Position numbers and translations under genes: made by a program. A stretch of 64,000 bases of DNA from Gemmatimonadota bacterium (lineage in GTDB: Bacteria > JAAXHH01), in assembly GCA_009837395.1 (NCBI GenBank), contig VXTP01000043.1:456936-520935 (forward strand), given 5' to 3'. Below are positions 939 through 50,333 of this stretch, piece after piece. How positions within the stretch are numbered: the first letter of the stretch is position 1; every line of letters begins with the position of its first letter. A model generated the notes under the pieces. The model had not been told where the DNA came from. It saw only the letters and a program-made list of their open reading frames with translations, and did no database searches.

Positions 939-942
939 AGCG

Positions 943-1911: not shown

Positions 1912-3345
1912 TCAGTCCCCCAGTACCCAGACGTCCTTGCCTCCGCCCCCCTGGCTGGAGTTTACGACCAGGCTGCCCTCACGCAGCGCGACCCGGCAGA
2001 ACGCACCCGGCACGATACGGGTCTCGCGGCCATGGAGCACGAAGGGCCGCAGGTCCACGTGCCGCGGCGCGGCACGGCCCCCGATCAGGCAGGGCGCGCG
2101 CGAAAGGTCCAGTACGGGCTGCGAAATGAAGTCCGCGGGGTCTTCCCGCAATGCGCGGGCGCAGGCTTCTCGTTCATCAGGCGTCGATTCCGGCCCGACC
2201 AGCATGCCGTGACCTCCCGACCCGCCTACCTGTTTCACGACGAGGTCCCGGAGGTTGTCCAGGGTGAACTCGAGATCCTCCGGACGTCGGCAGATGTAGG
2301 TCTTCACGTTCGGCAGCAGCGGTTCTTCGGCCAGGTAGTACCGTATCATATCGGGGACGTAGGCGTATACGCTCTTGTCGTCCGCGACGCCGGTGCCCGG
2401 CGCGTTCACCAGCGTGACGTTTCCGGCCCGGTAGACGCCCATGAGGCCCGGGAAGCCCAGCAGGGAGTCCGTCCGGAATACGAGCGGGTCCAGGAAATCG
2501 TCGTCCACCCGCCGGTAGATGACGTCCACCCTTTGCAGCCCTGATGTGGTGCGCATGTATACAAAACCGCCGTCGACCAGCAGGTCCCGTCCCTCGACCA
2601 GGGTCGCACCGATCTCGTCCGCCAGGTAGATGTGCTCGTAAAACGCCGCGTTGTATACGCCGGGCGTCAGCAGCACGACGCAAGGATCGTCCTCCGCGCG
2701 CGGCGCGAGTTCCCTCAGCGTTTCACGGAGCATGTGCCCGTAATGTTCGACCTCCCGCACCCGGCAGCTGCGGTAGAGCCGGCGCAGGTTGGCCTTGACC
2801 GCCTTCCGGTTGGCGACCATGTAGGATACGCCGGAAGGTACGCGCAGGTTGTCCTCGAGCACGTGAAACCCTTCGTTCGTGCGGACCAGGTCGGTGCCGC
2901 AGACCGCGACATAGGTCCCGTGCGGCACGGTCACTCCCCGCATTTCGACGCGATATTGGGGACAGCCGCGCACCAGGTCGACCGGGACGATCCCGTCTTC
3001 GACAATGCGGGCGGGACCGTATACATCGGCAAGAAACCGGTTCAACGCCTTCAACCGCTGGGCAAGTCCGGCTTCTAGCTGCCGCCAATCTGCTGCGGGC
3101 AGGATCCGGGGCAGGCAGTCGACGGGCATGATGCGCTCGCCGGCTTCATCTCCGCCGTATACCGTAAACGTGATGCCTTCGCTGGAAAAGGAATGCGTGA
3201 CCCGCTCCTGCATGCGAACGAGTTCTTCGACGGGAAGCCGGAGCAGAGATTCGTGCAGACTGCGGCAATGTGCGCGCGGCGTACCGTCAGGCAGGAACAT
3301 CTCGTCGTAGAAAGCGCTGTCCAGGTCGTATGCGTCGAAATCCAT
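1912..3345 (-). CDS. Circularly permuted type-2 ATP-grasp protein (amidoligase-like)
   Basis: Long ORF 1912-3525. The conserved N-terminal YDEMF motif lies just after Met61 (MDFDAYDLDSAFYDEMF), which is preceded by a GGGGA Shine-Dalgarno. I therefore place the start at 3345; alternatives are 3396 and 3525. Family assignment is from overall pattern (DUF404/DUF407-like). Confidence 0.7.
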   Translation of the reverse strand: MDFDAYDLDSAFYDEMFLPDGTPRAHCRSLHESLLRLPVEELVRMQERVTHSFSSEGITFTVYGGDEAGERIMPVDCLPRILPAADWRQLEAGLAQRLKALNRFLADVYGPARIVEDGIVPVDLVRGCPQYRVEMRGVTVPHGTYVAVCGTDLVRTNEGFHVLEDNLRVPSGVSYMVANRKAVKANLRRLYRSCRVREVEHYGHMLRETLRELAPRAEDDPCVVLLTPGVYNAAFYEHIYLADEIGATLVEGRDLLVDGGFVYMRTTSGLQRVDVIYRRVDDDFLDPLVFRTDSLLGFPGLMGVYRAGNVTLVNAPGTGVADDKSVYAYVPDMIRYYLAEEPLLPNVKTYICRRPEDLEFTLDNLRDLVVKQVGGSGGHGMLVGPESTPDEREACARALREDPADFISQPVLDLSRAPCLIGGRAAPRHVDLRPFVLHGRETRIVPGAFCRVALREGSLVVNSSQGGGGKDVWVLGD

Positions 3346-3693
3346 TACGAGGGTCCCCGATCGTCGGACCAGCTCATGCTTTCCACCGGCTAACATGTTA
3401 TATCGGGCAAAGCGGTAGATCAAGGGAAGTCTCCTCGCGCGATCAGGGCCCGGACGGCAAGACTTCATTGTCCAGCCGTGACATAAGCAAACCTGCCTTC
3501 TGCCGCCAACATTTCTATTGCGCATTCAAGTTCACTCGGTATAATCACGCTTGGGTCTATTCACTCGTCAGGTGTACCGTCCGCGCACGAATCCCGTCTC
3601 GCTGATACCGGTAACAACGGCCTGATCGTCCTTTCAACACAACCTGAGACATAACCGGAGGTTTCCGCGTTAGTCAAAGCAGCGGGAGATGGA

Positions 3694-5046
3694 TTGATGG
3701 GCGCTACGCTGGCGAATACACTTACCGCGTATTTTGACTTCATCTGGATGTCCTTCCTGTTGCTGGGTCCGATGTTGATCCTGGGTCTGCTGCTCTCCGG
3801 CCTGATCCACGTGTTCATCTCCCGCGAAGCGATCCTCAGATGGCTCCGGGACGACAGCCTCCGGTCGGTCTCCGTCAGCTCCGCGGTCGGTGTGCCAATT
3901 CCGCTTTGCAGCTGCTCTGTCGTCCCCGTCGTGGCTGAAATGCGACGGAAGGGCGCATCCCGTTCGTCTTGCATGGCCTTCCTGATCACCGCGCCGGAGA
4001 CCGGAGCGGACTCCATCCTCGTCACCAACGCATTTTTCGGGTTCGTCGCCGCCTTGGTACGTCCCGCCATCAGTTTTATCACGGCTGTCGTGGCGGGCGT
4101 TTTCTGCATTGGTCTGATCAGGGACGACAGCGGTGCTGTCAAGCCGAGGGAGGAAGATCACGACCATGGCCGCGACCAACATGACCATCACGACCAAGGC
4201 CGCGACCAACATGACCATCGCCACGCGGGTCACATTCCGTTGACATCGGTCAGGGACGATTGCTATGTCAGTCCCTCCGCCATGAAAGTCATGGTAACGC
4301 GGTGGATAAATGAAATAACCACCGTGGCTTCCACCTGGAGGTTCGGATCGAGGATCAAGCCCGGATTATACCGCGAAATCGATGGTGAACAGGCGAGAAA
4401 GTCTGGCAAGGTCGGCGAAGCGGACCGGGTGGAAGCGCAATACCCCGGGCTCGATTTCAAGAAGATCGTCCGTCACATCATGCACTACGGCTTTGTGGAG
4501 ATCGCCGACGATATACTCTTTGCGCTGCTCGTCGGTATCGCGCTGGGTGGCGTGCTCTTTCTTGTCATTCCGGCCGACCTGATGTCGAACGATTACGCAC
4601 GTTGGCTGTCCTATCCCGTCATGATTATCGTCGGTGTGCCCCTCTACATCTGCGCCTCGGCCAGCACACCGATAGCGGCTGCGCTGGTTGCCCGAGGCGT
4701 GAGCCCCGGCGCCGCGCTGATTTTCCTGATGACAGGACCGGCTACCAACACGAGTACCATCGCCATCATCATGAGTCGATTCGGCGCGCGCTTCGCGGCC
4801 GTTTACGTTACCTCCGTCATCGCGGTTACCGTCGTGATTGGCATAGCCATCGATTTCATGCTGCTCTCGACGGGCTTCACGATTACCGTCAACCTGCTCC
4901 CTTCCGAATCCCCCACGATCCAGTTCATACAGTGGGGCGGTGCAATGGCATTGATCGCGCTGATCATCTGGCGGTACCGCGCAGGTGCCATGCGCAGAGG
5001 ATACGAAGACATGATGGCCAACTTCAGGACTCGTACTGCGAAATGA
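3694..5046 (+). CDS. SO_0444-family (COG0701) metal permease with a His-rich cytoplasmic loop
   Basis: 450 aa with multiple TM segments and CxC motifs (PLCSCSVVP). The loop DHDHGRDQHDHHDQGRDQHDHRHAGH is encoded by a tandem DNA repeat at about 4150-4218. The stop overlaps the downstream ZIP gene start (ATGA at 5043-5046). Confidence 0.7.
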   Translation: MMGATLANTLTAYFDFIWMSFLLLGPMLILGLLLSGLIHVFISREAILRWLRDDSLRSVSVSSAVGVPIPLCSCSVVPVVAEMRRKGASRSSCMAFLITAPETGADSILVTNAFFGFVAALVRPAISFITAVVAGVFCIGLIRDDSGAVKPREEDHDHGRDQHDHHDQGRDQHDHRHAGHIPLTSVRDDCYVSPSAMKVMVTRWINEITTVASTWRFGSRIKPGLYREIDGEQARKSGKVGEADRVEAQYPGLDFKKIVRHIMHYGFVEIADDILFALLVGIALGGVLFLVIPADLMSNDYARWLSYPVMIIVGVPLYICASASTPIAAALVARGVSPGAALIFLMTGPATNTSTIAIIMSRFGARFAAVYVTSVIAVTVVIGIAIDFMLLSTGFTITVNLLPSESPTIQFIQWGGAMALIALIIWRYRAGAMRRGYEDMMANFRTRTAK

Positions 5047-5993
5047 ACGATATCGTCTTGCTACTCCTTGCGTATTCGACGGTGATCTTTGCCGTGTCCC
5101 TGATCGGTGGCAAGCTCTCGGCCGTTGTCACCCTGACCCACACCCGGACGCATCTGGTCATGAGTTTCGTGGCGGGGTTTCTTCTGGGCGTCGCCATGTA
5201 CCATCTGCTGTTGCACAGCCTCGATGACATCCCCGGTCCGCATGCCGGTGAAATCGCCGTGGGTTGCGTGGTACTGGGCGTCATCATGATGATCGTACTG
5301 CTGCGGTTCTTCAGGTTCCATCAACACGAATTCGGCCAGGATGCGGTCCTAATATCGGATCATGATGACCAGCCCGACCAGCCCGACCAGCACGGCCACC
5401 CGGTCCAGCACGGCCACCCGGTCCAGCACGGCCACCCGGTCCAGCACGGCCATCATGCTGCGGTAGTCGTCAATCCCCGAAGCGTGTTCGGTGTCGCCAC
5501 GGGCCTCGGCCTGCATACCATCACCGAGGGGATCGCCCTCGGCTCAAGCATGCGAGTGGGACTGATTCACGACGAGGGAGCGAGCCTCGTGGGACTGGGC
5601 GTGTTTCTGGCGATCATGCTGCATAAACCCCTGGACGCATATTCCATCATCGGATTGATGCGGGTATCCGGTTACCGGAAGCGGGCCTGCTCGCTGACCA
5701 ACATCGGGTTCGCCCTGCTGTGTCCGCTCATCACCGTATTGACCTTTTACGGCGTCGGCCTGCTGAGTGAACTCGACGAACTGCATGTGGTGGGTTACGT
5801 CATGGCCTTCGCCGCCGGTGTTTTCCTGTGCATCGCCCTGAGCGACCTGCTCCCCGAGATACAGTTTCACAGCCACGACCGCGGAATCCTCGTCCTGGCC
5901 TTTCTTATAGGGGTCGGGCTCGCATACGCCCTTTTCCTCTTCGAATCCGAGACTATGCACGGGCTGGAGACGTTGGATACTCATATCCATTAG
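5043..5993 (+). CDS. ZIP-family (ZupT-like) divalent metal transporter with an (HGHPVQ)n loop
   Basis: In-frame Met (MNDIVLLLLAYST...) inside the long ORF 4602-5993. It has a ZIP-like TM topology, conserved HxxxD/E-type TM motifs and the central loop DQPDQPDQHGHPVQHGHPVQHGHPVQHGH. The start overlaps the upstream stop as ATGA. Confidence 0.7.
   Translation: MNDIVLLLLAYSTVIFAVSLIGGKLSAVVTLTHTRTHLVMSFVAGFLLGVAMYHLLLHSLDDIPGPHAGEIAVGCVVLGVIMMIVLLRFFRFHQHEFGQDAVLISDHDDQPDQPDQHGHPVQHGHPVQHGHPVQHGHHAAVVVNPRSVFGVATGLGLHTITEGIALGSSMRVGLIHDEGASLVGLGVFLAIMLHKPLDAYSIIGLMRVSGYRKRACSLTNIGFALLCPLITVLTFYGVGLLSELDELHVVGYVMAFAAGVFLCIALSDLLPEIQFHSHDRGILVLAFLIGVGLAYALFLFESETMHGLETLDTHIH
5370..5455 (+). repeat. 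In-frame tandem repeat (9-bp x2 then 18-bp x3-4) encoding DQPDQP(HGHPVQ)n in the ZIP transporter
   Basis: The unit cagcacggccacccggtc is repeated three times, followed by a degenerate copy. Confidence 0.8.
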
Positions 5994-6020
5994 CATCCCC
6001 CAGCGCCGCGAGCTGCGCCT

Positions 6021-8249
6021 ATGTCGACTTCCATCCAGGGAACACCAAACGACGTGGATACCGAAACCCGCGTATTCCAGGTAGAGGGCATGACTTGCAG
6101 CGCGTGCTCGGCAAGGGTAGAAAAGATCCTCGCCCAGGTCCCCGGTGTCGCTGCCGCCCACGTGAACCTCGCGCTGGAAAGAGCGACGCTGACCGTTGCG
6201 CCCGGCGTGGAAGAAGGCGCGCTGGCCGGGCCCGTAGCCGCCGCGGGGTACCGGCTGAACGCCATTCAGGACGATCGACACGAGCCCGAGAAGAATCCTG
6301 GTCAGTCACGCCGGGACCGTATCGCCATGGTCGTCGCGATTTGCCTGACGATTCCCTTCCTGCTGCAGATGCTGGCCGGACTGCTGCGGGGCTGGACCGG
6401 TTTCGACGGGCACATGCCCGTATACGCGGAAGCGATGCTCGCGACCGTACTGCAGATCGGGGTCGGCGCCCGCTACTACCGGAGCGCTTTCCACGCGCTG
6501 CGCGGTGGCAGCGCGAACATGGACGTACTGGTGGCCCTTGGAACCACTGCGGCCTATGCGTACAGTGGTTACCTCGCCTTCCGCCTGGGGGCCGCCGCGG
6601 CAGGCCTGCTCTACTTCGAAGCCTCCGCGATCATCATTACCCTCGTACTCATCGGCAAGCACATCGAGACCCGGGCGCGTCGCAGCGCGAGCCGGGCGAT
6701 TCGGGAACTGCTCGCGATCCGGCCGGTCACCGCGCGGGTACGGACTGCAGACGGCACGGAGCGGGATACGCCGGTACATGCCTTGAAGGCCGGTGACGTC
6801 GTCATCTGCCGTCCAGGCGACCGGGTGGCCGCAGACGGTGTCGTGCTCCGGGGCGAAGCCGAGATCGACGAAGCGCTTATCACAGGTGAGAGCGTCCCGG
6901 CGTCCAAACACCCGACCGACAACGTGATCGCCGGATCGATGAACGTCAACGGCTTCCTGGAAATCGAGGCCCGGGCCGTAGGGAGCGATTCGACGCTGGG
7001 ACGGGTGATACGCCTGGTCGAAAGCGCGCAGGCTGCCAAGCCGGCGATTCAGCGCATGGTGGATCGCGTAAGCGCTGTTTTCGTACCGGTGGTCGTCGGC
7101 CTGGCCGTGATCACCTTCACCGCGTGGGCCCTTTCAGGGGCCGGCCTGGATTCCGCGTTGATCAATGCCGTCTCCGTCCTCGTCATCGCCTGTCCTTGCG
7201 CGCTGGGCCTGGCGACGCCGACGGCCATCGTGGCCGGTGCGGGCGTGGCGGCCAGGGCGGGCATCCTGATCCGGGATATCGAATCCCTGGAACAGTCGAA
7301 CGACCTGACGCACGTCATTTTCGACAAGACGGGCACGCTGACCGAAGGCCGGCCCGTGATCGCGGCCGTCACGCCCCTGGCCGAGCGGGATGAAGGCGAT
7401 CTGATACGGATCGCCACATCGCTGCAGCAGGGCAGTGAGCATCCCTTCGCCGCCGCGTTTCTGCGCATGGCCACGGAACGGTACCTCGCCCTTTCAGATG
7501 TAAGAGGATTCAGGAGCGTGGTAGCGAAAGGCGTCCAGGGAGACATCGATGGCACACGCTACCTGCTGGGAAACCGGAGGCTCTTCGAAGCATACTGTCC
7601 GGGCATCACGCCGCCCGATGTACCGGATGACGGGGGTTTCACGGCGGTTTGGCTGGCAGCCCGAACCGATGCCGGATGCGCATTCCTCGCGCGATTCGAT
7701 CTCATCGACGCGTTGCGGTCCGATGCCGTCGAGGCGGTGGACGGGCTCAGAAAGCTGGGGGTCAGGATCCTGCTGGTTTCGGGCGACGCGGAGACCGTCG
7801 TGGAGCGTATCGGACGGCAGGCCGGCGTTGACGAAACCCACGGCGCCGCTACGCCGGTAGAAAAGGAGCGTATCGTAAGCCGGCTGGCAGAAGGCGGCGC
7901 GAAGGTCTGTATGGTCGGCGACGGGATCAATGACGCACCCGCCCTCGCCCGGGCTACCGTGGGGATCGCTATGGGCTCCGGTACGGACGTGGCCATGGAA
8001 ACGGCCGCGATCACGCTGATGAGACCCAATCCGACCCTTGTGGCCGGCGCGATCGACGTGAGCCGGAAGACGATCCGGAAAATCAAGCAGAATCTGTTCT
8101 GGGCGTTTATCTACAACGTGATCGGACTGCCCCTCGCGACGCTGGGATTCCTCGTCCCCGCGTTCGCTGCGGCCATGATGGCAGCCTCCAGCATCAGCGT
8201 CGTCCTGAACGCGCTGACGCTTCGCTCGTGGCGTCCAGGAACCAGGTAG
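6021..8249 (+). CDS. copA: Copper-translocating P1B-type ATPase
   Basis: 742 aa. N-terminal HMA domain with GMTCSACSARVE, TM CPC motif (ACPCALG), DKTGTLT phosphorylation site and GDGINDAPAL hinge. Confidence 0.9.
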   Translation: MSTSIQGTPNDVDTETRVFQVEGMTCSACSARVEKILAQVPGVAAAHVNLALERATLTVAPGVEEGALAGPVAAAGYRLNAIQDDRHEPEKNPGQSRRDRIAMVVAICLTIPFLLQMLAGLLRGWTGFDGHMPVYAEAMLATVLQIGVGARYYRSAFHALRGGSANMDVLVALGTTAAYAYSGYLAFRLGAAAAGLLYFEASAIIITLVLIGKHIETRARRSASRAIRELLAIRPVTARVRTADGTERDTPVHALKAGDVVICRPGDRVAADGVVLRGEAEIDEALITGESVPASKHPTDNVIAGSMNVNGFLEIEARAVGSDSTLGRVIRLVESAQAAKPAIQRMVDRVSAVFVPVVVGLAVITFTAWALSGAGLDSALINAVSVLVIACPCALGLATPTAIVAGAGVAARAGILIRDIESLEQSNDLTHVIFDKTGTLTEGRPVIAAVTPLAERDEGDLIRIATSLQQGSEHPFAAAFLRMATERYLALSDVRGFRSVVAKGVQGDIDGTRYLLGNRRLFEAYCPGITPPDVPDDGGFTAVWLAARTDAGCAFLARFDLIDALRSDAVEAVDGLRKLGVRILLVSGDAETVVERIGRQAGVDETHGAATPVEKERIVSRLAEGGAKVCMVGDGINDAPALARATVGIAMGSGTDVAMETAAITLMRPNPTLVAGAIDVSRKTIRKIKQNLFWAFIYNVIGLPLATLGFLVPAFAAAMMAASSISVVLNALTLRSWRPGTR

Positions 8250-8272
8250 GTCTATCGGATCATCGAACCGGC

Positions 8273-10456
8273 TCAGGCGGGTTGGTCGGAAGGGGAAGCG
8301 GCGGGGGGTTCCGGTGCGTTCTCGACGGCGGCCAGTGGCAGCCTGATGGCCATTTCGGTGTATTGGCCAGATTCCGAATCCACCTCGATCGAACCACCGT
8401 GTTCACGGACGATATCGTTCGACAGGGCCAGGCCGAGGCCAGTGCCCTCGTCGGTGGGCTTGGTGGTGAAGAAGGGGTTGAAGATCTTGTCGATCACGTG
8501 GGGCGGAATCCCCTTGCCGTTGTCCTTTATCCGGACGACGAGCTGATCCTCCTCGCGGCGGGTGGACAACCAGATGCCAGGTACGTAACCGGATTCCGTG
8601 TCCGGATCCTCACGCTTCTCGTTGGTGGCGTGACAGGCGTTGTTCACCATGTTCAGGAATACCCGGGCCATTTCCTGGGAAACGATCTCGATCTCGCCCA
8701 GATCGGATTCGAAGTCTTCGTGGATTTCAAGCTGGAAGTCCGCGTTCGATGCCCGGGCGGCATGGTAGGCGAGGCGGGCGTGTTCTTCCAGCAGGGCATT
8801 GATGTCCGTCGACTGTTTATCTCCCGAACCTCGGCCCATCTGAAGCATATCGCGCACGATGCGGTTGGCCCGTTCGCCATGCTCCCGGATCCGGCGCAGG
8901 TTTTCCGTGAGGTCGCCGCCGATCTCCTTGATCAGTCCGTCCTGCTCCTCGTCGATCGAGCCGCCGGCCTCGGGCAGTTCTTCCTTCATTTCCTCGAGGA
9001 GTTCTTCCGAGGACTCCGCGAAGTTCTTGACGAAGTTCAACGGGTTCTGGATCTCGTGCGCCACGCCCGCGGTGAGTTCGCCCAGGGCCGCCAGTTTCTC
9101 CCGCATGACGATCTGGTCCTGCGCTTTCTGCAGTTCTGCCAGGGTGCTCTCCAGCTCGTCGTTTTTTCCGCGCAGTTCCTCGGCCAGTTTCTCAACGAGG
9201 TTCAGCCTTTGCGCTTCGATGGAGTGAAGCCTGAAGACTTCCAGCGCGGCGGCCATGTCCGCCACCTCGTCACGGCCGTCCAGTTCGACTTTCTGCTTCA
9301 GATCCCCTCCCGCCATCCGCCGCATGTGTTCCGATAGAAACCCCAGCCTGCGCAGCAGCACCTTGCCGACGAACAACCACGCGATCAGCAAGGCGCCGAC
9401 CAGACTGACCGCGTTCAGGGCCAGGAGAAGCTGCCGGCCCACCTGGATCGTCTGCGTCGACGCGACCGTGGCGGCCCGGGTACTCTCCTGCGCCGAATTC
9501 ACGAGGCTTTCCACTTCGGCCACCAGTTCGACGGAGAGATCCCGGTTGTTTTCGATCAGGGCCCGTTGCTGAGCGATCAGGTCCAGGTCCTCTCCGCGAA
9601 TCTCGAAGATCTTCCCCTGGCCGCTGCCCAGTTCGAAGAGCTGGGCGAATACCGGTTCGAGCCGTTGCCGCAGGGGCGCCGTACCCAGGCCGGCGAGACT
9701 TCGCTCCACGCCGCCGTCGGCCGACTCGAAGCGTTCCAGCAGGGGTTCCAGCCGATCGGCATCGGACAGGTTGAAGACGTTAGACAGGATCCGGGTGCTG
9801 ACGGTCGCCTCGGCCTGCAGATCGGCCAGATGCCTGTAACGTTGCAGTTCCTCTTCGGAGAGGTATTCCTCGCGGGGCGCCACCGGCTGATCGATGTCCC
9901 GGTATCCCGTTACCGTGTAGAACAACTGGTTGTCAATCGCCGGGACCAGGATATTCGTCAGTTCGAACTGCAGCCGTTCCAGTTCAAGACGAAGCTGCCG
10001 GCCCTGCTCCTGGAGCACGAAGCGTCTGGCCACGGACTCCTCGATCATTTCGATATTCGACATCAGCGTGTTGCCGGCTTCGCTGATGTGTTGAAAGCGT
10101 TCGTCTTCCATGCCGTAGCCGGCGATGGCTTCCAGCTGCACCGCGAAACTCTCCCGTTCCTCGGCGATGCTCGCGGTTACGGATTCAAAGGTTTCGGGGG
10201 TTTCCGCGGCCGTCAGGCGCGGCGCGGCCGCCGCCAGCGTCCCGCTCCGCTGGGCCACGCCGAAGGCCGCCGCGATCTCCGGTACGGCGACCTCGTTTAC
10301 TTCGCGCTGGGCCTCGCCGACCTCGTTGAAGGCGAACCACGCCACCATACTGGCCAGCATGGTCAGCGCTACCGCCGCCCCGATGCCCAGGTACAACTGC
10401 CCCGATATTCGGGAAGGGCCCTTGTCGTACAACCACAACAGCCACTGCTTGATCAT
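8273..10456 (-). CDS. Sensor histidine kinase (TM-periplasmic domain-TM-HAMP-HisKA-HATPase)
   Basis: 727 aa. Two hydrophobic segments flank a periplasmic region of about 300 aa. A HAMP-like region follows TM2. H-box LAALGELTAGVAHEIQNPLNF and G-box GTGLGLALS are present. The start overlaps the upstream binding-protein stop (10453-10456). Confidence 0.85.
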   Translation of the reverse strand: MIKQWLLWLYDKGPSRISGQLYLGIGAAVALTMLASMVAWFAFNEVGEAQREVNEVAVPEIAAAFGVAQRSGTLAAAAPRLTAAETPETFESVTASIAEERESFAVQLEAIAGYGMEDERFQHISEAGNTLMSNIEMIEESVARRFVLQEQGRQLRLELERLQFELTNILVPAIDNQLFYTVTGYRDIDQPVAPREEYLSEEELQRYRHLADLQAEATVSTRILSNVFNLSDADRLEPLLERFESADGGVERSLAGLGTAPLRQRLEPVFAQLFELGSGQGKIFEIRGEDLDLIAQQRALIENNRDLSVELVAEVESLVNSAQESTRAATVASTQTIQVGRQLLLALNAVSLVGALLIAWLFVGKVLLRRLGFLSEHMRRMAGGDLKQKVELDGRDEVADMAAALEVFRLHSIEAQRLNLVEKLAEELRGKNDELESTLAELQKAQDQIVMREKLAALGELTAGVAHEIQNPLNFVKNFAESSEELLEEMKEELPEAGGSIDEEQDGLIKEIGGDLTENLRRIREHGERANRIVRDMLQMGRGSGDKQSTDINALLEEHARLAYHAARASNADFQLEIHEDFESDLGEIEIVSQEMARVFLNMVNNACHATNEKREDPDTESGYVPGIWLSTRREEDQLVVRIKDNGKGIPPHVIDKIFNPFFTTKPTDEGTGLGLALSNDIVREHGGSIEVDSESGQYTEMAIRLPLAAVENAPEPPAASPSDQPA

Positions 10457-11754
10457 GGCATCACGTCCCGGAGGGTACGGATGGGATGGTAACGGCCATC
10501 CTGTCCGATCACCGTAAGGAAGACCGCGTCCGAACCCTGGTTATCCCCTTCGCCGAACTCGAGACGAAGACCGCCCAGGTCGATCGTCCCCGCCCGGTTC
10601 AGACTCTCCATGAGGCAGGATCGCCTTACGTCAGGGCCACAGCCCTCGAGGGCGGTGATCGTCAGCTTGCCGGCGAGGTATCCTTCGAAGGAAACGAATC
10701 CGGGGGTCGTGCCCGGCGCGTGCGCGGAGAGCGCTCTGCGGTACTGGACGGCGATGGCGATGTTACCGGCCGCGGGGAAGGGCACCACCTGAGAGACCAG
10801 GACACCGCGTCCGTCGGGACCCAGTTCTCCGGCCAGCGCATTACTCCCCACGAATGAAATCGTTGCGAATACGGGATTGAAACCCACGTGCCGCGCCCAC
10901 GCGATGAGCGTGGCAACCGGCTGGTAGGCGCCGATCACCACCACAGCGTCCGGTTTTCCCTGCTGCAGATCGAGCAGGCCGGCCTTGATCGCGGTGGTGT
11001 TCCTCGGATACACGCCGATCGCTACGGGATCGAGTTGCCGGCGCTCCAGCGCGCGCCGTACGCCGCGGTATCCGACCCGGCCGAAGGAGTCGTTCTGGTA
11101 CATCACACCGATGCGGGTGATGCCGAGATCGCGCGAAAGCCGGTCGACGATTTCCTCGGTCTCCTGGAAATAGGAGGCCCGCAGGTTAATGACGCCCGTA
11201 TCCGTGTTGTCACGTAAAAAAATCGCGCCGGTGAATGGCGCGATATAGGGTACGCCGGCCTCCGAAGTAATGGGAACGGCCGAGCGGGAGGTAGGGGTGC
11301 CGACGGCACCGATGAGCGCGAAAACCTCTTCTTCCTCGATCAGTTTCCGGGTATTCGCGATCGCGGCTTCCGGTTCATAGGCGTCATCGAGCGTGATCAG
11401 CTCGAGCTGCCTTCCGTGTACGCCGCCCCGGCGATTCGCTTCCTGGAAGGCCGCCTCGATCCCGAGGTTCATGTTCCGCCCGAGTTCGCGGGCGGGTCCG
11501 CTGAAGGCCGCGGACTGGCCGAAGAGTATGCGTTCGGCCGTCACACCGGGCTCGGTCGCCGCTCCGGGCTCGGTCGCCGCTCCGGGCTCGGTCACCGCTC
11601 CGGGCTCGGTCACCGCTCCGGGCTCGGTCACCGCTCCGGGCTCTTCGACCTGGGAGGCGTTCGCGCCGCTGTTTTCAGAGGATAAAGCGGGAGAGAACGC
11701 CGTCGCACAAAGGGCGAGCAGGATGACCGCCCAGTGGTCGCGCGTTCGTCTCAT
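10453..11754 (-). CDS. Periplasmic solute-binding protein (type-1 PBP, Leu/Ile/Val-binding-like) with an (EPGAVT)n linker
   Basis: 433 aa with an N-terminal signal peptide (ILLALCATAFSPALS). It has the LivK-like fold pattern. The low-complexity linker TEPGAVTEPGAVTEPGAVTEPGAATEPGAATEPG is encoded by an 18-bp tandem repeat at about 11539-11646. It overlaps both neighbouring genes by 4 nt. Confidence 0.75.
   Translation of the reverse strand: MRRTRDHWAVILLALCATAFSPALSSENSGANASQVEEPGAVTEPGAVTEPGAVTEPGAATEPGAATEPGVTAERILFGQSAAFSGPARELGRNMNLGIEAAFQEANRRGGVHGRQLELITLDDAYEPEAAIANTRKLIEEEEVFALIGAVGTPTSRSAVPITSEAGVPYIAPFTGAIFLRDNTDTGVINLRASYFQETEEIVDRLSRDLGITRIGVMYQNDSFGRVGYRGVRRALERRQLDPVAIGVYPRNTTAIKAGLLDLQQGKPDAVVVIGAYQPVATLIAWARHVGFNPVFATISFVGSNALAGELGPDGRGVLVSQVVPFPAAGNIAIAVQYRRALSAHAPGTTPGFVSFEGYLAGKLTITALEGCGPDVRRSCLMESLNRAGTIDLGGLRLEFGEGDNQGSDAVFLTVIGQDGRYHPIRTLRDVMP
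11539..11646 (-). repeat. In-frame 18-bp tandem repeat (about 6 copies) encoding the (EPGAVT)n linker of the solute-binding protein
   Basis: The units ggctcggtcgccgctccg and ggctcggtcaccgctccg are repeated back to back. Confidence 0.8.
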
Positions 11755-12176
11755 CCGTTTTCCTTCCGCTTGACGATCGTGAGTATGTTCTGGTTGTCTT
11801 CGCGGCGGTAGCTCAGTTCATCCATCATGGTCCGGACGAGGTAGATACCCAGGCCGCCCACGGGCCGATCGTCCAGTCCGGAGTCGACATCCGGTTCCGG
11901 CGAATCGGTCAGGGGGTTGAAGGCCCGTCCCTCGTCCCGCAATTCGATCGTGAGGGCTTCGGTATCCGAGCTCATCACGATTTCGAATTCATGGTCGGGA
12001 TCGCCGCCGTGGCCGTGCGTGACGATATTCACGCCCAGTTCCTCGAGGACCAGCTTGACCTGGTAGACCATACCCGGCGGCCATTCTTCGGTCTCGCCGA
12101 GTTCATCCACCGCTTCGTAGATGCGCTCCAGCTGGTCAAGCTTCGTGGGCAGGCTTAGGGACAGTCTTCTGCTCAT
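11751..12176 (-). CDS. Anti-sigma regulatory factor, serine kinase (RsbW/SpoIIAB-like, HATPase_c_2)
   Basis: 141 aa. GHGGDP, DEG..FNP and GGLGIYL motifs are typical of RsbW-type GHKL kinases. It lies between the REC-PP2C gene and the binding-protein gene. Confidence 0.75.
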   Translation of the reverse strand: MSRRLSLSLPTKLDQLERIYEAVDELGETEEWPPGMVYQVKLVLEELGVNIVTHGHGGDPDHEFEIVMSSDTEALTIELRDEGRAFNPLTDSPEPDVDSGLDDRPVGGLGIYLVRTMMDELSYRREDNQNILTIVKRKENG

Positions 12177-12178
12177 GG

Positions 12179-13342
12179 TCAGACCTGGCGTTGAAGCACG
12201 GTAACACAGGTAATATCATCCGATTGCGGCGTTTCTCCGGCGAACTCATGGACCGCCTTGAACACCGCTTTGTTTGCGTCTTCCGTACTGCCGGGAGGGT
12301 CATCCGCGAAAACCGCCTGCAGGCGGTCCATGCCGAATTCCTCCCCGTCGGCGTTCATGGCTTCCGTTACGCCGTCGGTATAGAGCAACAGGAGATCGCC
12401 CGGGGAGAGCACAACGGCGGACTGGCCGAAATTTACGCCCGGAAAAACCCCGAGCGCCAGGCCGTCCGTACCGGGGAGAAGCGTCGATGAGCCGTCGGAA
12501 TGCACCACCAGCGGAGGATTGTGCCCTCCGTTGGAATAGTCCACCTGTCCGGTCTGGGGGTTGTATACCGCGTAGAAAGTCGTGACGAACATGGCCGCTT
12601 CGTTTTCCTCGGTAAGCAGGTCGTTGACCTCCTTGAGCACGGCGCCCGGTTCGATGGCGCCGATCGCCGAGCCCTTCAGCAGGGTCCTGCTGGACATCAT
12701 GAACAGGGCGGCAGGAACGCCCTTGTCGGAAACATCGGCGATGGCCAGGGCGATCTTGCCTCCGGGCAGGCCGAAAACGTCGAAAAAGTCGCCGCCAACC
12801 TCCCGGGCCGGTTCCATGTTCGCGTATATCTCGCAATGATCGGAATCTGGGAACTCGGTGGGCAGAATCGACTGCTGCATCTTGCTGGCCACGTTCAGTT
12901 CGTTCTGCAGCCGAACGAGCTTGTCCCGCGACTCCAGGGCTTCGCGCCATTCCTCCATGTTCTTCAGCGTACGTTCAATCGTTACCCGCAAGTCCTGGAA
13001 ATCGATCGGCTTGGTAATGAAATCGAAGGCGCCCCGGTTCATGGCCGTGCGGATGTTCTTCATGTCCCCGTAGGCGGATACCACCACGGCGCGGATGTCG
13101 GGGGCAATGTTCGGTATCTGCGCCAGCAGCGTAAGACCGTCCATCCGGGGCATGTTGATATCGGACAGGACCATGTCTATATCGGGCACTTCATTGAGGC
13201 GTTCCAGGGCTTCCACGCCGTTCTGGGCGAAATATAGCGTATACAGGCCGGAACGCACGTCACGGCGCATGCGCTGCCGCATCAGGTGTTCGAGATCCGG
13301 CTCGTCGTCCACTACAAGGATTTTGTACGGTGTCTGCGTCAT
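12179..13342 (-). CDS. Response-regulator receiver fused to PP2C (SpoIIE/RsbU-type) phosphatase
   Basis: 387 aa. N-terminal REC domain (ILVVDDEPDL, phospho-acceptor LSDINMPRMDG). C-terminal PP2C domain with GGDFFDV and ADVSDKG metal-binding motifs. Confidence 0.85.
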   Translation of the reverse strand: MTQTPYKILVVDDEPDLEHLMRQRMRRDVRSGLYTLYFAQNGVEALERLNEVPDIDMVLSDINMPRMDGLTLLAQIPNIAPDIRAVVVSAYGDMKNIRTAMNRGAFDFITKPIDFQDLRVTIERTLKNMEEWREALESRDKLVRLQNELNVASKMQQSILPTEFPDSDHCEIYANMEPAREVGGDFFDVFGLPGGKIALAIADVSDKGVPAALFMMSSRTLLKGSAIGAIEPGAVLKEVNDLLTEENEAAMFVTTFYAVYNPQTGQVDYSNGGHNPPLVVHSDGSSTLLPGTDGLALGVFPGVNFGQSAVVLSPGDLLLLYTDGVTEAMNADGEEFGMDRLQAVFADDPPGSTEDANKAVFKAVHEFAGETPQSDDITCVTVLQRQV

Positions 13343-13443
13343 TTCACCCCCGGAAACCGCCGCGGCCTATACTGTTTCCGCTATACGCCACACAGCGCTT
13401 TGGAATAAACGCTGCGACGCAGTGTGGAAACAGGTAGAGGCGT

Positions 13444-13782
13444 TTACCGGCCGATCTTATCCACTGCTTCGGCCTGGGAATCGTGAATGGATATGATCTT
13501 GTCGAAACCGCTGATTTCGAAGACTTCCCGGATCGGATCCGAAAGCGAGCACAATGCGAACGCGGCATTACGCTTCTGGAGCAGTCGCGCGATCAGCAGG
13601 ATGACCCTCAGGCCCGCGCTGCTTATGTAGGACAAGGCACTGAAATCCAGCAGCACCTTGCTGTCGTCTTCACCGATGGCGCCGTTGAGCGCGTCTTCGA
13701 ATTCCCGCGCGTTGGCGCCGTCGATTCGACCTTCAACCTTCGCAATAAGTACTTCGTTTGCTCGGTCGACACTGATCTCCAT
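13444..13782 (-). CDS. STAS-domain anti-sigma-factor antagonist (RsbV/SpoIIAA-like)
   Basis: 112 aa. The motif DFSALSYISSAGLRVIL carries the conserved phosphorylatable Ser in the DxSxxxxxSSxG context. It is the first gene of the minus-strand operon. Confidence 0.8.
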   Translation of the reverse strand: MEISVDRANEVLIAKVEGRIDGANAREFEDALNGAIGEDDSKVLLDFSALSYISSAGLRVILLIARLLQKRNAAFALCSLSDPIREVFEISGFDKIISIHDSQAEAVDKIGR

Positions 13783-13924
13783 GAAACCAACCCCCTTTAC
13801 AGGTTTATAATACTGCCTTGTTCGGCAAAATCAGCAATCTGTACTCCATAGGTTTTTCCTGGTTTCTGTACATCTGGACCTGCCTGGCCCGGTCCGGCCA
13901 GGATCTGCCCGGCCACGCGTCTGC

Positions 13925-14716: not shown

Positions 14717-14962
14717 AACGCTGTAGAACCCGGGGACTGGAACGCATAACTCATATATAGTCCAAGCCTATACAAATCAACAACAATAAACATTTCAGTG
14801 CAGAATTTCGCACGAATAACGTAAATTAACTTACGAGCAAGAAATTTCAACCCCTTTTCACAAATCGAGGGTTTTATTCGACATTGCAGCGCCCGGTCGG
14901 AATGTGTACGGCGCCGGCCGAAATCGATACATCCATCATCGTACAACCCGGAGGAATGCACC

Positions 14963-21978: not shown

Positions 21979-22265
21979 GATCGAGTCTCCATCGATGGCC
22001 AGATAACAGTGTGAATATAGCAAACCTGACTTTTATGTCAAGTATTAAATCCGGTGCGTATCGAAGCGATGATCGCGTGCGCTTTCCACTGTGCTCAACC
22101 TGTGCTCAAGCTTTGCTCAGGCCTTTGATGAATCGTGCCGGCCGCTAAGAGGTGACGCCGCAGTTTCCCGAGCGATCTCCTTGACATCGAAGGCGACCGG
22201 CGTTACCGTCGGTCCCATATCCACCTAACCGAATCTCACGCTTAAGCGAGGACGAAAGATCACCC

Positions 22266-23363: not shown

Positions 23364-23402
23364 CAAACTGTTCACGAACGGGTTACGGTTCTGGAGCCTT
23401 GC

Positions 23403-48701: not shown

Positions 48702-48702
48702 G

Positions 48703-48966: not shown

Positions 48967-49004
48967 ATCGCTGCCCGATCCATTCAGACCTGCGTGACAT
49001 GCTT

Positions 49005-49988: not shown

Positions 49989-49998
49989 CGTCCGCTAC

Positions 49999-50301: not shown

Positions 50302-50333
50302 GTTCGCCTCCCTTCGCCGTATGGCCTGTCGGG

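What the first reader, a model, noticed from the sequence alone, without database searches (positions are those of the whole stretch)
8273..13782. Five-gene operon wiring a periplasmic binding protein and HAMP histidine kinase into a REC-PP2C / STAS / RsbW-like partner-switching module with no sigma factor in the operon
All five genes are on the minus strand with start/stop overlaps or 2-bp gaps (13444/13342; 12179/12176; 11754/11751; 10456/10453), which implies one transcript and translational coupling. The order is STAS, then REC-PP2C phosphatase, then an RsbW-like GHKL anti-sigma kinase, then a LivK-like periplasmic binding protein with an (EPGAVT)n linker, then a histidine kinase with a roughly 300-aa periplasmic domain. 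The predicted logic is as follows. A ligand-loaded binding protein (inference: an amino acid or small solute) docks on the kinase. The kinase phosphorylates the REC domain of the PP2C. The PP2C dephosphorylates the STAS protein. The STAS protein then sequesters the RsbW-like kinase. No sigma factor or other obvious RsbW target is encoded in the operon; rpoN lies about 37 kb away in an unrelated locus. The output partner is therefore unknown and could be non-sigma.
Basis: partly seen in the sequence, partly recalled or inferred. Interest (0 to 1): 0.7.

Follow-up and report, generated by a model that had tools for sequence, protein, structure and literature searches.

The report
Binding-protein-gated partner-switch signalling cassette
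This is a real, strongly conserved five-gene bacterial signalling cassette: a periplasmic binding protein and a TorS-like sensor kinase feed a phosphatase/kinase/antagonist "partner switch". Every part is of a known kind, but I found no description of this wiring, of its spread across at least seven phyla of mostly sponge-associated bacteria, or of its tight linkage to ammonium-transporter and ATP-grasp/transglutaminase genes.

Summary
The five minus-strand genes and all domain calls are confirmed: STAS, REC-PP2C, RsbW-like GHKL kinase, Peripla_BP_6 binding protein with an (EPGAVT)n linker, and a HAMP histidine kinase with a 300-aa periplasmic domain. One detail is wrong. STAS and REC-PP2C are separated by 101 nt, not by an overlap.

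The kinase's periplasmic domain is TorS-like by sequence and by predicted fold, which supports docking of the binding protein. The core REC-PP2C/RsbW/PBP/HK is collinear in 77 of the 80 best species genomes, from about seven phyla. STAS lies either upstream or convergent downstream.

Two relatives carry telling fusions. One has REC-PP2C-RsbW in a single protein (the HsbR/CrsR architecture). The other has the TorS-like sensor and HAMP joined directly to PP2C. These support the proposed signal flow.

No dedicated sigma factor lies beside any of the 80 loci, which is normal for REC-PP2C partner switches. The conserved neighbours are instead a marine-type ammonium transporter (37/80) and a CP-ATP-grasp/Alpha-E/transglutaminase trio (17-19/80). 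The window itself has that trio 4.7 kb downstream, behind an inserted metal-transport island. The binding pocket is not LivJ-like, so an amino-acid ligand is unsupported.

Verdict: a new variant of a known kind, probably nitrogen-related, with an unidentified output.

The parts
13783..13850 (-). Conserved non-coding block upstream of STAS. It contains a TGCC-N6-GGCA inverted repeat, an AT-rich TATAAA element and the RBS AAAGGGGG. Candidate promoter/operator.
   Evidence: Alignment with L007-L014 and sequence. The consensus sigma-70 scan found no promoter here, so function is inferred.
13444..13782 (-). STAS anti-sigma-factor-antagonist-like protein (112 aa). The Ser in YISSAGL falls in the column of SpoIIAA Ser58.
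   Evidence: Pfam STAS 75 bits. TIGR00377 78 bits, above its cut-off. YISS.GLR is conserved in at least 90% of 48 family members. Closest solved structures are TM1442 and SpoIIAA.
13343..13443 (-). 101-nt intergenic gap between STAS and REC-PP2C. It is not an overlap.
   Evidence: Only the RBS is conserved among close relatives. No terminator-like site was found.
12179..13342 (-). Response-regulator PP2C (PPM) phosphatase (387 aa): REC domain, helical linker, SpoIIE-type phosphatase.
   Evidence: Pfam Response_reg 88 bits and SpoIIE 180 bits. DD, D61, S89 and K111 of REC are conserved, as are VGGDF.D, ADVS.KG, YTDGVTEA and DD.TC of PP2C. The closest solved structure is P. aeruginosa REC-PPM 3eq2/3f7a, E 7e-27.
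11751..12176 (-). RsbW/SpoIIAB-like GHKL serine kinase (141 aa).
   Evidence: Pfam HATPase_c_2 98 bits. N-box E..N, D.G..F and GGLG are conserved. Weak hits to RsbW and SpoIIAB models and structures.
10453..11754 (-). Secreted Peripla_BP_6 (LivK-fold) solute-binding protein (433 aa), predicted co-sensor of the kinase.
   Evidence: Pfam 182 bits. Best solved relative is 4kv7, E 2e-71. Signal peptide here, lipobox in Chloroflexota relatives. None of the gene families that recur beside the 80 related loci is an ABC-transporter component, and none of the window ORFs I scanned is one. Always adjacent to the HK.
11546..11643 (-). 18-nt tandem repeat (5.4 copies) encoding the (EPGA[V/A]T)n linker between signal peptide and binding fold. 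Copy number varies between strains.
   Evidence: TRF. The protein is 433 aa here, 415 aa in L001-L006 and 403 aa in L007.
8273..10456 (-). Transmembrane sensor histidine kinase (727 aa): TorS-like double four-helix-bundle periplasmic domain (about residues 43-342), HAMP, HisKA, HATPase_c. It has no REC or HPt domain.
   Evidence: Pfam. TIGR02956 TorS N-terminal region, E 2e-53. AF2 model pLDDT 87, and the six best Foldseek hits are all TorS sensor domains, TM 0.54-0.83 (0.71-0.83 for the four chains from the TorS-TorT complex).
3694..8249 (+). Three metal-transport genes on the opposite strand: ArsP_1 permease, ZIP, CopA-type P-ATPase. They are not part of the system. They look like an insertion separating the cassette from the ATP-grasp operon.
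   Evidence: Pfam. In other phyla the HK is followed directly by CP_ATPgrasp.
30..3525 (-). Associated operon on the same strand as the cassette: CP_ATPgrasp (ORF 1912-3525, probable start near 3345), Alpha-E (943-1911), transglutaminase-like (30-938).
   Evidence: Pfam 514, 211 and 85 bits. Homologues lie next to the cassette in 17-19 of 80 loci from four phylum-level groups, and in L002 and L089.

Best explanation
The cassette is a two-component-fed partner switch.

1. A secreted LivK-fold binding protein, loaded with a still unknown small ligand, docks on the TorS-like periplasmic domain of the histidine kinase. This is inferred by analogy with TorT/TorS.
2. The kinase phosphorylates the receiver domain of the REC-PP2C phosphatase. 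This is inferred from invariant co-location and from a relative in which the same sensor and HAMP are fused directly to the PP2C.
3. The activated phosphatase dephosphorylates the conserved serine of the STAS protein, which the RsbW-like kinase otherwise keeps phosphorylated. This is inferred from conserved motifs and from the known chemistry of RsbU/V/W, RsbK/RsbY and HsbR/HsbA.
4. Unphosphorylated STAS then binds the RsbW-like kinase and changes what that kinase, or STAS itself, holds.

The terminal target is not encoded as a sigma factor in cis in any of the 80 genomes examined. My rough split is:
- about 40%: a sigma-70-family factor encoded elsewhere, as RpoS is for CrsR/HsbR;
- about 30%: a non-sigma target among the co-transferred neighbours;
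- about 30%: some other partner.

The physiological theme is most likely nitrogen acquisition. The cassette travels with a marine-type ammonium transporter and with the CP-ATP-grasp/Alpha-E/transglutaminase operon, and this window still carries that operon 4.7 kb downstream.
For: - Domains and ORFs are confirmed.
- The sensor is TorS-like by Pfam, by TIGR02956 (E 2e-53 over residues 17-441) and by fold (AF2 pLDDT 87; the top six PDB hits are all TorS sensor domains, four of them from the TorS-TorT complex). TorS signals only via its binding protein (PMC8050422).
- The PBP gene is always adjacent to the HK, and none of the gene families that recur beside the cassette is an ABC transporter. It is exported via a signal peptide or lipobox.
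- REC-PP2C/RsbW/PBP/HK are collinear in 77 of 80 species genomes from about seven phyla. STAS is within 10 kb in 71 of 80.
- Functional residues are conserved in at least 90% of relatives: the STAS Ser, the RsbW N/G boxes, the PP2C metal-binding Asp residues and the REC phospho-acceptor.
- Fusions in relatives: REC-PP2C-HATPase_c_2 in one 564-aa protein in L091, and TorS_sensor-HAMP-PP2C in one 700-aa protein in L092, each still next to the PBP.
- Precedents: REC-PPM phosphatases start partner switches (PMC12143880). HsbR/HsbA and CrsR/CrsA act on RpoS and FlgM encoded elsewhere (PMC6482189).
- Nitrogen theme:
  - A type-A Amt (TIGR03644 'marine subtype', above cut-off) is present in 37 of 80 loci. 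It is 70-84% identical across phyla and lies within 300 nt of STAS or HK in 21 loci.
  - A second, canonical AmtB clade sits next to STAS in five more loci.
  - The CP_ATPgrasp/Alpha-E/TGase trio is beside the cassette in four phylum-level groups and in the window.
  - The Anbu gene, which frequently shares an operon with this trio, is induced by nitrogen limitation in P. putida (PMC5666114).
  - These domains track urea-metabolism domains in marine metagenomes (PMC3597751).
Against: - Nothing here is biochemical. Phosphotransfer, docking, STAS phosphorylation and the sign of regulation are all inferred.
- The ligand is unknown, and the LivJ amino-acid contacts are not conserved.
- STAS is separated by 101 nt here and is on the opposite strand in 20 of 80 relatives, so co-transcription of all five genes is not general.
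- The window carries no Amt gene at all. Its ATP-grasp operon is separated from the cassette by 4.7 kb of opposite-strand genes, so the nitrogen link rests on relatives.
- No promoter motif, sigma-54 or otherwise, ties the neighbours to the cassette.
- All genomes are MAGs, and taxon labels are sometimes inconsistent.
Confidence: 0.6

Rival explanations
1. The output is non-sigma and local. The STAS protein (or the RsbW-like kinase), depending on its phosphorylation state, binds and gates the co-transferred ammonium transporter in a GlnK-like manner, or controls the CP-ATP-grasp/Alpha-E/transglutaminase enzymes post-translationally.
For: - The cassette has moved between about seven phyla without any sigma gene. 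Its target must therefore be universal or travel with it.
- The travelling genes are the type-A Amt, which is more conserved than the HK (70-84% versus 55-70% identity), and the ATP-grasp trio.
- Amt lies within about 50 nt of STAS and on the same strand in 15 loci. An unrelated AmtB clade also sits beside STAS in five loci.
- My ORF maps show no GlnK beside the type-A Amt.
- STAS proteins with non-sigma partners are known: HsbA with FlgM and SypA (PMC10120452).
Against: - There is no precedent for STAS-Amt binding, and no paper was found.
- The window and its clade lack a nearby Amt yet keep an intact cassette.
- Adjacency can equally reflect co-regulation.
- Only one lineage (Latescibacterota type 1) contributes 14 of the 15 type-A Amt-STAS pairs.
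Confidence: 0.2
2. This is a classical anti-sigma switch. The RsbW-like kinase sequesters an alternative (or the primary) sigma-70-family factor encoded elsewhere, and STAS binding releases it to transcribe a regulon that includes the amt and ATP-grasp genes. In this reading the RsbW-like protein is a true anti-sigma factor.
For: - The RsbW-like protein is the size of RsbW/SpoIIAB, and its best matches are RsbW and SpoIIAB.
- The fused form in L091 has the CrsR/HsbR architecture, and those proteins bind RpoS.
- In one of the 80 loci, housekeeping rpoD is the gene immediately upstream of REC-PP2C.
Against: - No alternative sigma gene lies beside the cassette. The only sigma-70-family hits within 10 kb are ECF-like hits 6 kb or more away in three loci and housekeeping rpoD in one.
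- A target-less module spreading across phyla needs a pre-existing compatible sigma in each recipient.
- No shared promoter motif was found.
Confidence: 0.35
3. The two halves are functionally independent. The PBP serves a transporter, and the HK signals to another response regulator. The PP2C/RsbW/STAS genes merely sit beside them.
For: - The HK lacks any direct test of partner specificity.
- L088 has RsbW/PBP/HK/STAS without a detectable REC-PP2C. L087 has a related HK in a different context.
Against: - Four-gene collinearity holds in 77 of 80 genomes across phyla.
- Start/stop overlaps join RsbW-PBP and PBP-HK.
- No other REC gene and no ABC transporter recurs nearby.
- The sensor-HAMP-PP2C fusion in L092 bypasses the kinase and receiver altogether.
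Confidence: 0.05

Closest known systems
Pseudomonas aeruginosa HptB-HsbR-HsbA and Shewanella oneidensis CrsR-CrsA
   Same: A receiver-controlled PP2C phosphatase works with an RsbW-like kinase on a STAS antagonist. The sigma or anti-sigma targets (RpoS, FlgM) are encoded elsewhere (PMC6482189). A relative of this cassette (L091) has the same REC-PP2C-kinase fusion.
   Different: - Here REC-PP2C and the kinase are two genes separated by 2 nt.
- Input is a dedicated binding-protein/TorS-like kinase pair in the same operon, not an Hpt relay.
- The hosts are not Proteobacteria with RpoS.
- Sequence similarity to the Pseudomonas RssB-type REC-PPM is modest (117 bits against a cut-off of 700).
Bacillus cereus RsbK-RsbY-RsbV-RsbW-sigmaB
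   Same: A sensor kinase controls a REC-PP2C phosphatase that starts an RsbV/RsbW partner switch (PMC4574943 abstract; de Been 2010 as cited in PMC12143880).
   Different: - RsbK is a cytoplasmic-type hybrid kinase regulated by the methyltransferase RsbM.
- sigB is in the locus.
- There is no binding protein and no TorS-like sensor.
TorT-TorS TMAO sensor (E. coli, Vibrio parahaemolyticus)
   Same: A double four-helix-bundle periplasmic sensor followed by HAMP, with an adjacent gene for a dedicated periplasmic binding protein that is not part of a transporter (fold match).
   Different: - TorT is Peripla_BP_1, whereas this protein is Peripla_BP_6.
- TorS is a hybrid kinase with REC and HPt that signals to the DNA-binding TorR.
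- This kinase ends after HATPase_c and sits with a REC-PP2C.
- It scores 182 bits against the TIGR02956 cut-off of 676.
Vibrio fischeri SypE-SypA and Bordetella BtrU/V/W
   Same: Partner-switch-type kinase/phosphatase plus STAS modules in Gram-negative bacteria for which no sigma factor target is known. The STAS protein is thought to be the effector (SypE/SypA: PMC10120452; Btr: own knowledge).
   Different: SypE carries kinase, REC and PP2C in one protein and belongs to a polysaccharide locus. Neither system has a binding-protein/kinase input in the operon.
Chlamydia RsbU (transmembrane PP2C with a periplasmic sensor domain)
   Same: It resembles the L092 variant, where a periplasmic sensor is fused through HAMP to the PP2C that acts on an RsbV/RsbW pair (own knowledge of Chlamydia; L092).
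   Different: The Chlamydia sensor domain is of another fold and binds metabolites directly. The window's system inserts a kinase-to-receiver step and uses a separate binding protein.

Membership tests
RsbU/RsbV/RsbW-type partner-switching module | STAS antagonist with a phosphorylatable Ser/Thr at the SpoIIAA Ser58 / RsbV Ser56 position | tested here: met
   YISSAGL aligns with DSSGLG/DSTGLG. The Ser is conserved in at least 90% of 48 relatives. TIGR00377 is above its cut-off.
RsbU/RsbV/RsbW-type partner-switching module | GHKL serine kinase of the HATPase_c_2 family with intact ATP-binding boxes | tested here: met
   PF13581 98 bits. E..N, D.G..F and GGLG are conserved.
RsbU/RsbV/RsbW-type partner-switching module | PPM/PP2C phosphatase with metal-binding aspartates | tested here: met
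   PF07228 180 bits. GGDF.D, ADVS.KG, YTDG and DD.TC are conserved.
RsbU/RsbV/RsbW-type partner-switching module | A sigma factor (or other target) bound by the kinase and released by the antagonist | not testable with these tools
   There is no sigma-70-family gene in the window and no dedicated one beside any of the 80 loci. The target may be encoded elsewhere.
HsbR/CrsR-type three-domain response regulators | REC, PP2C and HATPase_c_2 in one polypeptide | tested here: not met
   In the window they are two ORFs with a 2-nt gap. They are fused in relative L091. The window therefore has a split equivalent and is not itself a member.
HsbR/CrsR-type three-domain response regulators | Adjacent STAS partner gene | tested here: met
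   STAS lies 101 nt upstream and is within 10 kb in 71 of 80 relatives.
TorS sensor kinase (TIGR02956 equivalog) | TorS-type double four-helix-bundle periplasmic domain plus HAMP | tested here: met
   PF21689 scores 35 bits against a cut-off of 27. TIGR02956 positions 2-431 match at E 2e-53. Foldseek's top six hits are TorS, TM 0.54-0.83.
TorS sensor kinase (TIGR02956 equivalog) | Hybrid architecture with C-terminal REC and HPt, and a whole-protein score above the curated cut-off | tested here: not met
   There is no REC or HPt, and the protein ends after HATPase_c. It scores 182 bits against a cut-off of 676.
TorS sensor kinase (TIGR02956 equivalog) | Partner binding protein of the TorT (Peripla_BP_1) type | tested here: not met
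   The adjacent binding protein is Peripla_BP_6. TorT is listed as Peripla_BP_1.
LivJ/LivK branched-chain amino-acid binding proteins | Peripla_BP_6 fold | tested here: met
   PF13458 182 bits. PDB relatives are 4kv7, 3lop and LivJ/LivK.
LivJ/LivK branched-chain amino-acid binding proteins | Residues that bind the ligand's alpha-amino and alpha-carboxylate groups (LivJ S79, T102, Y202, E226) | tested here: not met
   They map to T153, G176, A276 and S300. T153, G176 and S300 are invariant or nearly so in 77 relatives; position 276 varies (A/T/S) and is never Tyr. The alignment is at low identity, so the mapping is approximate. NF011933 scores 51 bits against a cut-off of 477.
LivJ/LivK branched-chain amino-acid binding proteins | Genetic linkage to LivHMGF-type ABC transporter genes | tested here: not met
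   None of the neighbouring genes I scanned in the window is one, and none of the gene families that recur beside the related loci is one.
Bacillus cereus RsbK/RsbY sigmaB module | sigB and rsbM in the locus, with a hybrid kinase of the RsbK type | tested here: not met
   The locus has no sigma gene and no methyltransferase, and the kinase is not hybrid.

The most novel reading that the evidence does not exclude
The cassette is a horizontally shared nitrogen-sensing module of sponge and coral symbionts whose partner switch has no sigma-factor output. Instead, phosphorylation of the STAS protein directly gates the co-transferred marine-type ammonium transporter, playing the role GlnK plays for AmtB, and/or switches the enigmatic CP-ATP-grasp/Alpha-E/transglutaminase system on and off. 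That would link an extracellular ligand seen by the binding protein to ammonium uptake without transcription.
Probability: 0.15. Interest if true: 0.8.

Novelty: new variant of a known kind. Interest (0 to 1): 0.55.

Why it matters
- Partner switches fed by two-component systems are known, but their inputs and outputs are rarely identified outside a few model organisms. Here both ends are unusually tractable.
- The input is a dedicated soluble binding protein whose predicted pocket residues are nearly all invariant across 77 relatives. This implies one ligand, which can be screened.
- The conserved neighbours narrow the output to nitrogen acquisition: two independent Amt clades and the long-uncharacterised CP-ATP-grasp/Alpha-E/transglutaminase operon.
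- The cassette is shared at 55-70% identity by Latescibacterota/Gemmatimonadota, Chloroflexota, Acidobacteriota, Alpha- and Gammaproteobacteria, Spirochaetia, Opitutales and Rhodothermales MAGs. Several of these are documented as sponge-derived. It may therefore be a niche-specific trait exchanged among members of sponge microbiomes.
- It also gives a natural series of architectures (split, fused, kinase-less) for studying how PP2C partner switches are wired.

Tried and rejected
- **Sigma factor nearby.** phmmer/tblastn with RpoE and SigB found nothing in the window. Only four of the 80 loci gave hits. The one adjacent hit (L085) is the C-terminal half of housekeeping rpoD.
- **Sigma-54 promoters** upstream of STAS, REC-PP2C, Amt or CP_ATPgrasp. 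Hits were scattered and inconsistent, many of them inside coding sequence.
- **Consensus sigma-70 promoter and terminator scan** of 7900-15200. Nothing was informative, and counts were at or below the shuffled expectation.
- **Riboswitch or sRNA in the gaps.** There are no Rfam hits at gathering score and no tRNAs in the whole window.
- **Amino-acid ligand.** LivJ contact residues are not conserved. UrtA models match only weakly (29 bits), so urea is not supported either.
- **Sequence search of the sensor profile against PDB.** It found only HAMP matches. The fold search was needed to see TorS.
- **PBP-sensor fusions among distant relatives.** None was found. The TorS-like sensor is instead joined to MCP, cyclase, hybrid-kinase or PP2C outputs.
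- **Cultured hosts via the plasmid collection.** Only distant TorS-like chemoreceptors in Azospirillum turned up.
- **Paralogues of the five proteins elsewhere in the window.** None.
- **Literature searches** for this wiring or for a STAS-Amt link. Nothing was found.
- **PhyH dioxygenase neighbours.** These are confined to the Latescibacterota lineages (21 of 80), so I treat them as lineage context and not as part of the system.

Full report
**1. What is in the sequence**

- HK, 8273-10456
- PBP, 10453-11754
- RsbW-like kinase, 11751-12176
- REC-PP2C, 12179-13342
- STAS, 13444-13782

Pfam places each above its gathering score:
- STAS: 75 bits.
- REC-PP2C: Response_reg 88 bits plus SpoIIE-type PP2C 180 bits.
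- RsbW-like: HATPase_c_2 98 bits.
- PBP: Peripla_BP_6 182 bits.
- HK: TorS_sensor_domain 35 bits, HAMP, HisKA and HATPase_c.

Reading the junctions directly gives ATGA overlaps for PBP/HK and RsbW/PBP, and TGA-CC-ATG for PP2C/RsbW. The gap is not conserved among close relatives except for the ribosome-binding site. A block of about 60 nt just upstream of STAS is conserved and holds a TGCC-N6-GGCA inverted repeat.

The (EPGA[V/A]T)n linker is an 18-nt tandem repeat of 5.4 copies. Its copy number differs between near-identical assemblies.

The HK stop is 23 nt from the stop of a convergent copA-type gene. No paralogues of the five proteins and no sigma-70-family gene occur in the 64-kb window. 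rpoN is at 50334-51776, in an ordinary lptA/rpoN/ptsP-type neighbourhood.

**2. The parts look functional**

- The STAS serine sits in the SpoIIAA Ser58 column (YISS.GLR).
- The kinase keeps its N-box, D.G..F and GGLG motifs.
- The phosphatase keeps GGDF.D, ADVS.KG, YTDGVTEA and DD.TC.
- The receiver keeps DD, the acceptor Asp, Ser/Thr and Lys.

The HK has an intact H-box (AHEIQNPL), N, G1, F and G2 boxes (read).

The closest solved structures are:
- the P. aeruginosa REC-PPM protein 3eq2/3f7a for the phosphatase;
- RsbW and SpoIIAB for the kinase;
- TM1442 and SpoIIAA for STAS.

**3. The input**

The first 441 residues of the HK match the N-terminal part of the TorS equivalog model TIGR02956 at E 2e-53, far below the whole-protein cut-off. 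An AlphaFold2 model of residues 37-350 is all-helical, with pLDDT 87 and pTM 0.76. Its six best PDB matches are all TorS sensor domains, four of them chains from the TorS-TorT complex structures, with probability 1.0. TM-scores are 0.71-0.83 for those four complex chains and 0.54-0.79 for the two isolated domains.

TorS is the textbook kinase that senses its ligand only through a dedicated binding protein (PMC8050422).

Here the binding protein belongs to a different family, Peripla_BP_6, whereas TorT is Peripla_BP_1. Three observations fit a dedicated extracytoplasmic co-sensor:
- It is exported. It has a signal peptide in diderm lineages and a lipobox Cys plus a Pro/Thr-rich tether in Chloroflexota.
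- It always sits next to the kinase.
- None of the gene families that recur beside the cassette is an ABC transporter.

Its closest solved relatives are structural-genomics entries 4kv7 (E 2e-71) and 3lop, whose depositor names give only generic or 'probable' functions.

When aligned to E. coli LivJ, the residues that hold the amino acid's alpha-amino and carboxylate groups are replaced: S79/T102/Y202/E226 become T/G/A/S. Three of these four positions are invariant or nearly so in 77 homologues; the Y202 position varies (A/T/S) but is never Tyr. All members therefore probably see one ligand, and it is probably not a LivJ-type amino acid. The alignment is at low identity, so this is indicative only.

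**4. Conservation and spread**

A profile of the sensor region finds 510 clusters (at 50% identity) with E <= 1e-30 among 1.84 billion representatives. A scan of one genome per species found at least 409 stretches that encode a relative.

The 80 best carry these labels:

| Label | Loci |
|---|---|
| Latescibacterota/Gemmatimonadota | 38 |
| Chloroflexota | 21 |
| Acidobacteriota | 8 |
| Alphaproteobacteria | 5 |
| Gammaproteobacteria | 4 |
| Spirochaetia | 2 |
| Opitutales | 1 |
| Rhodothermales | 1 |

Many of these loci are on multi-megabase contigs, so mis-binning does not explain the spread.

tblastn with the five window proteins shows REC-PP2C, RsbW, PBP and HK collinear in 77 of 80. In the two Spirochaetia loci the RsbW-like gene fell below my thresholds. 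One contig is cut at its end.

STAS lies upstream on the same strand in 49 loci and downstream and convergent in 20. It was not found within 10 kb in 9.

Identities between phyla (55-70% for the HK) are no lower than between sub-clades of one phylum. This indicates horizontal transfer.

The source assembly and its closest relatives are MAGs. The 'jk18x..bins' series among the loci is documented as coming from Caribbean Ircinia sponges (PMC9531527). From my own knowledge, most of the other record names are also sponge or coral MAG series. I did not verify that.

**5. Fusions that fix the wiring**

Gene contexts of more distant kinase relatives include two Rosetta-stone cases, checked by BLAST:
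- **L091.** One 564-aa protein carries REC and PP2C (55% identical to the window protein) followed by the RsbW-like domain (30% identical). It is followed by PBP, HK and STAS. This is the HsbR/CrsR architecture.
- **L092.** The PBP gene is followed by a 700-aa protein. Its first 450 residues align with the window HK sensor and HAMP (34% identity). Its last 280 residues align with the window PP2C linker and catalytic domain (37.5% identity). The kinase core and the receiver are both absent, and an RsbW-like gene lies beside it.

Together these say that the TorS-like sensor talks to the PP2C, and that the PP2C and the RsbW-like kinase act as one unit.

Other distant sensors of this fold are attached to chemoreceptor, cyclase or hybrid-kinase outputs. 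One relative (L087) sits in a different context. The cassette is therefore a sub-clade of a modular sensor family.

**6. What it is linked to**

I clustered all ORFs of the 80 loci and then ran targeted tblastn. Three recurrent neighbours emerged.

*(a) An ammonium transporter, within 10 kb in 41 of 80 loci.*
- In 37 of these it is one clade. It matches TIGR03644 'probable ammonium transporter, marine subtype' above its cut-off.
- That clade is 70-84% identical across phyla, which is more conserved than the kinase.
- It lies within 300 nt of STAS in 15 loci and of the HK in 6.
- My ORF maps show no GlnK beside it.
- In five further loci a different, canonical AmtB clade sits next to STAS, with GlnK where I could see it.

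*(b) The CP_ATPgrasp/Alpha-E/transglutaminase trio, in 17-19 of 80 loci from four phylum-level groups.*
- It lies immediately after the HK or before STAS/REC-PP2C, and sometimes has the Amt inserted inside it.
- It also occurs in L002 and L089.

*(c) PhyH dioxygenases, in 21 of 80 loci.* These are confined to Latescibacterota lineages.

The window has no Amt. It does have the trio at 30-3525, on the same strand as the cassette. Three opposite-strand metal-transport genes (ArsP_1 permease, ZIP, CopA) separate the trio from the HK and look like an insertion.

Two published observations point to nitrogen. The trio frequently shares an operon with the Anbu gene, and Anbu is up-regulated in nitrogen-limited P. 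putida (PMC5666114). The trio's domains co-vary with urea-metabolism domains in marine metagenomes (PMC3597751).

Sigma factors are essentially absent from the neighbourhoods. There are ECF-like hits 6 kb or more away in three loci, and one adjacent gene that proved to be housekeeping rpoD.

**7. Mechanism**

The best-supported reading has four steps:
1. The ligand-loaded binding protein docks on the TorS-like sensor.
2. The kinase phosphorylates the receiver of the PP2C.
3. The PP2C, activated through its helical linker as proposed for REC-PPM phosphatases (PMC12143880), dephosphorylates STAS.
4. STAS then engages the RsbW-like kinase.

What is shown:
- the domains;
- the conserved catalytic residues;
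- the TorS-like fold;
- the invariant gene association;
- the fusions.

What is inferred:
- docking;
- phosphotransfer;
- STAS phosphorylation;
- the sign of the response;
- the ligand;
- the output.

For the output I give about 40% to a sigma-70-family factor encoded elsewhere, the CrsR/HsbR precedent. I give about 30% to a non-sigma target among the co-transferred genes, and about 30% to something else. A module that crosses phyla without its target needs a universal target or one that travels with it. That argument, together with the STAS-Amt adjacency involving two unrelated Amt clades, keeps the non-sigma reading alive.

**8. Comparison with known systems**

- The logic matches B. cereus RsbK/RsbY (abstracts) and HptB/HsbR/HsbA and CrsR/CrsA. 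Absence of a sigma gene is therefore not in itself surprising.
- The window does not meet the defining single-polypeptide architecture of HsbR/CrsR. It is a split equivalent.
- It is not a TorS orthologue. It has no REC or HPt, scores below the model cut-off, and pairs with a binding protein of a different family.
- Its binding protein is not a LivJ/LivK orthologue.

Literature searches for this wiring, or for any STAS-Amt connection, found nothing. The library does not hold most subscription-journal papers, so this is a limited negative.

**9. Verdict**

It overstates co-transcription of STAS, is unsupported on the ligand, and is wrong to treat the missing sigma factor as unusual.

This is a new variant of a known kind of system. 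Three things give it added interest: its cross-phylum spread in host-associated bacteria, its natural series of architectures, and its linkage to ammonium transport and to an operon of unknown function.

Noticed in passing
window 11546-11643: An 18-nt tandem repeat (5.4 copies) encodes the EPGA[V/A]T linker of the binding protein. Copy number differs between near-identical assemblies (433 aa here, 415 aa in L001-L006, no repeat in L007, a different repeat in L008), so the tether length is hypervariable.
   Followed up: partly
window 3694-8249 (+): Three metal-transport genes (ArsP_1 permease, ZIP, CopA-type P-ATPase with an HMA domain) lie on the opposite strand between the kinase and the CP_ATPgrasp operon. 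In other phyla the kinase is followed directly by CP_ATPgrasp, so this looks like an inserted metal-homeostasis island.
   Followed up: partly
L002 (GCA_009846145.1 VXYG01000072.1) 5495-13850: A second assembly has RsbW, PBP and HK essentially identical to the window (100% aa for RsbW and HK; the PBP differs in linker repeat number), but its REC-PP2C is only 91% identical. Upstream it carries CP_ATPgrasp, Alpha-E, a second RsbW-like gene (145 aa) and a different STAS (119 aa, 38% identical). This is either a recombination breakpoint inside REC-PP2C or a chimeric assembly.
   Followed up: no
window 13783-13850: A block of about 60 nt upstream of STAS is conserved in L007-L014 while the flanking non-coding DNA has diverged. 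It contains a TGCC-N6-GGCA inverted repeat followed by TATAAACC. It may be an operator or an unusual promoter.
   Followed up: partly
L085 6101-6850: In one Gammaproteobacteria (Azotimanducaceae) genome the housekeeping rpoD gene ends immediately upstream of REC-PP2C. At one in 80 this is probably chance, but it is a lead if the RsbW-like protein targets the primary sigma factor.
   Followed up: partly
L092 10196-11712: Beside the sensor-HAMP-PP2C variant lie a RelA_SpoT-family small alarmone synthetase gene and an HD_4 hydrolase gene. This hints at a link to the stringent or nutrient-limitation response.
   Followed up: no
window 13925-14716 (-) and 14963-15940 (+): Two divergent PhyH-family dioxygenase genes lie just upstream of STAS. 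They give weak matches to methylphosphonate hydroxylase, ectoine hydroxylase and chlorinating enzymes. PhyH genes accompany the cassette in 21 of 80 loci, all Latescibacterota-type.
   Followed up: partly
window 46941-54137: This is a standard rpoN neighbourhood: a PtsP-like enzyme I (46941-48701), rpoN (50334-51776) and an LptA/OstA-like gene (52548-54137). It is unrelated to the cassette.
   Followed up: partly
window 22260-23846 (-): A 528-aa ORF has no Pfam match at E <= 1e-5. It may be a spurious ORF in this GC-rich sequence or an uncharacterised protein.
   Followed up: no
window 41127-42842 (+): This ORF has two Lamin Tail Domain stretches and a C-terminal FlgD Ig-like domain. It is a secreted or surface-type architecture of the kind often noted in host-associated bacteria.
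   Followed up: no
L075 4860-6446 and 13978-15372: One Chloroflexota genome has both Amt types near the cassette. A canonical AmtB with GlnK lies upstream of STAS, and the marine-type Amt lies inside the CP_ATPgrasp/Alpha-E/TGase operon downstream of the kinase.
   Followed up: partly
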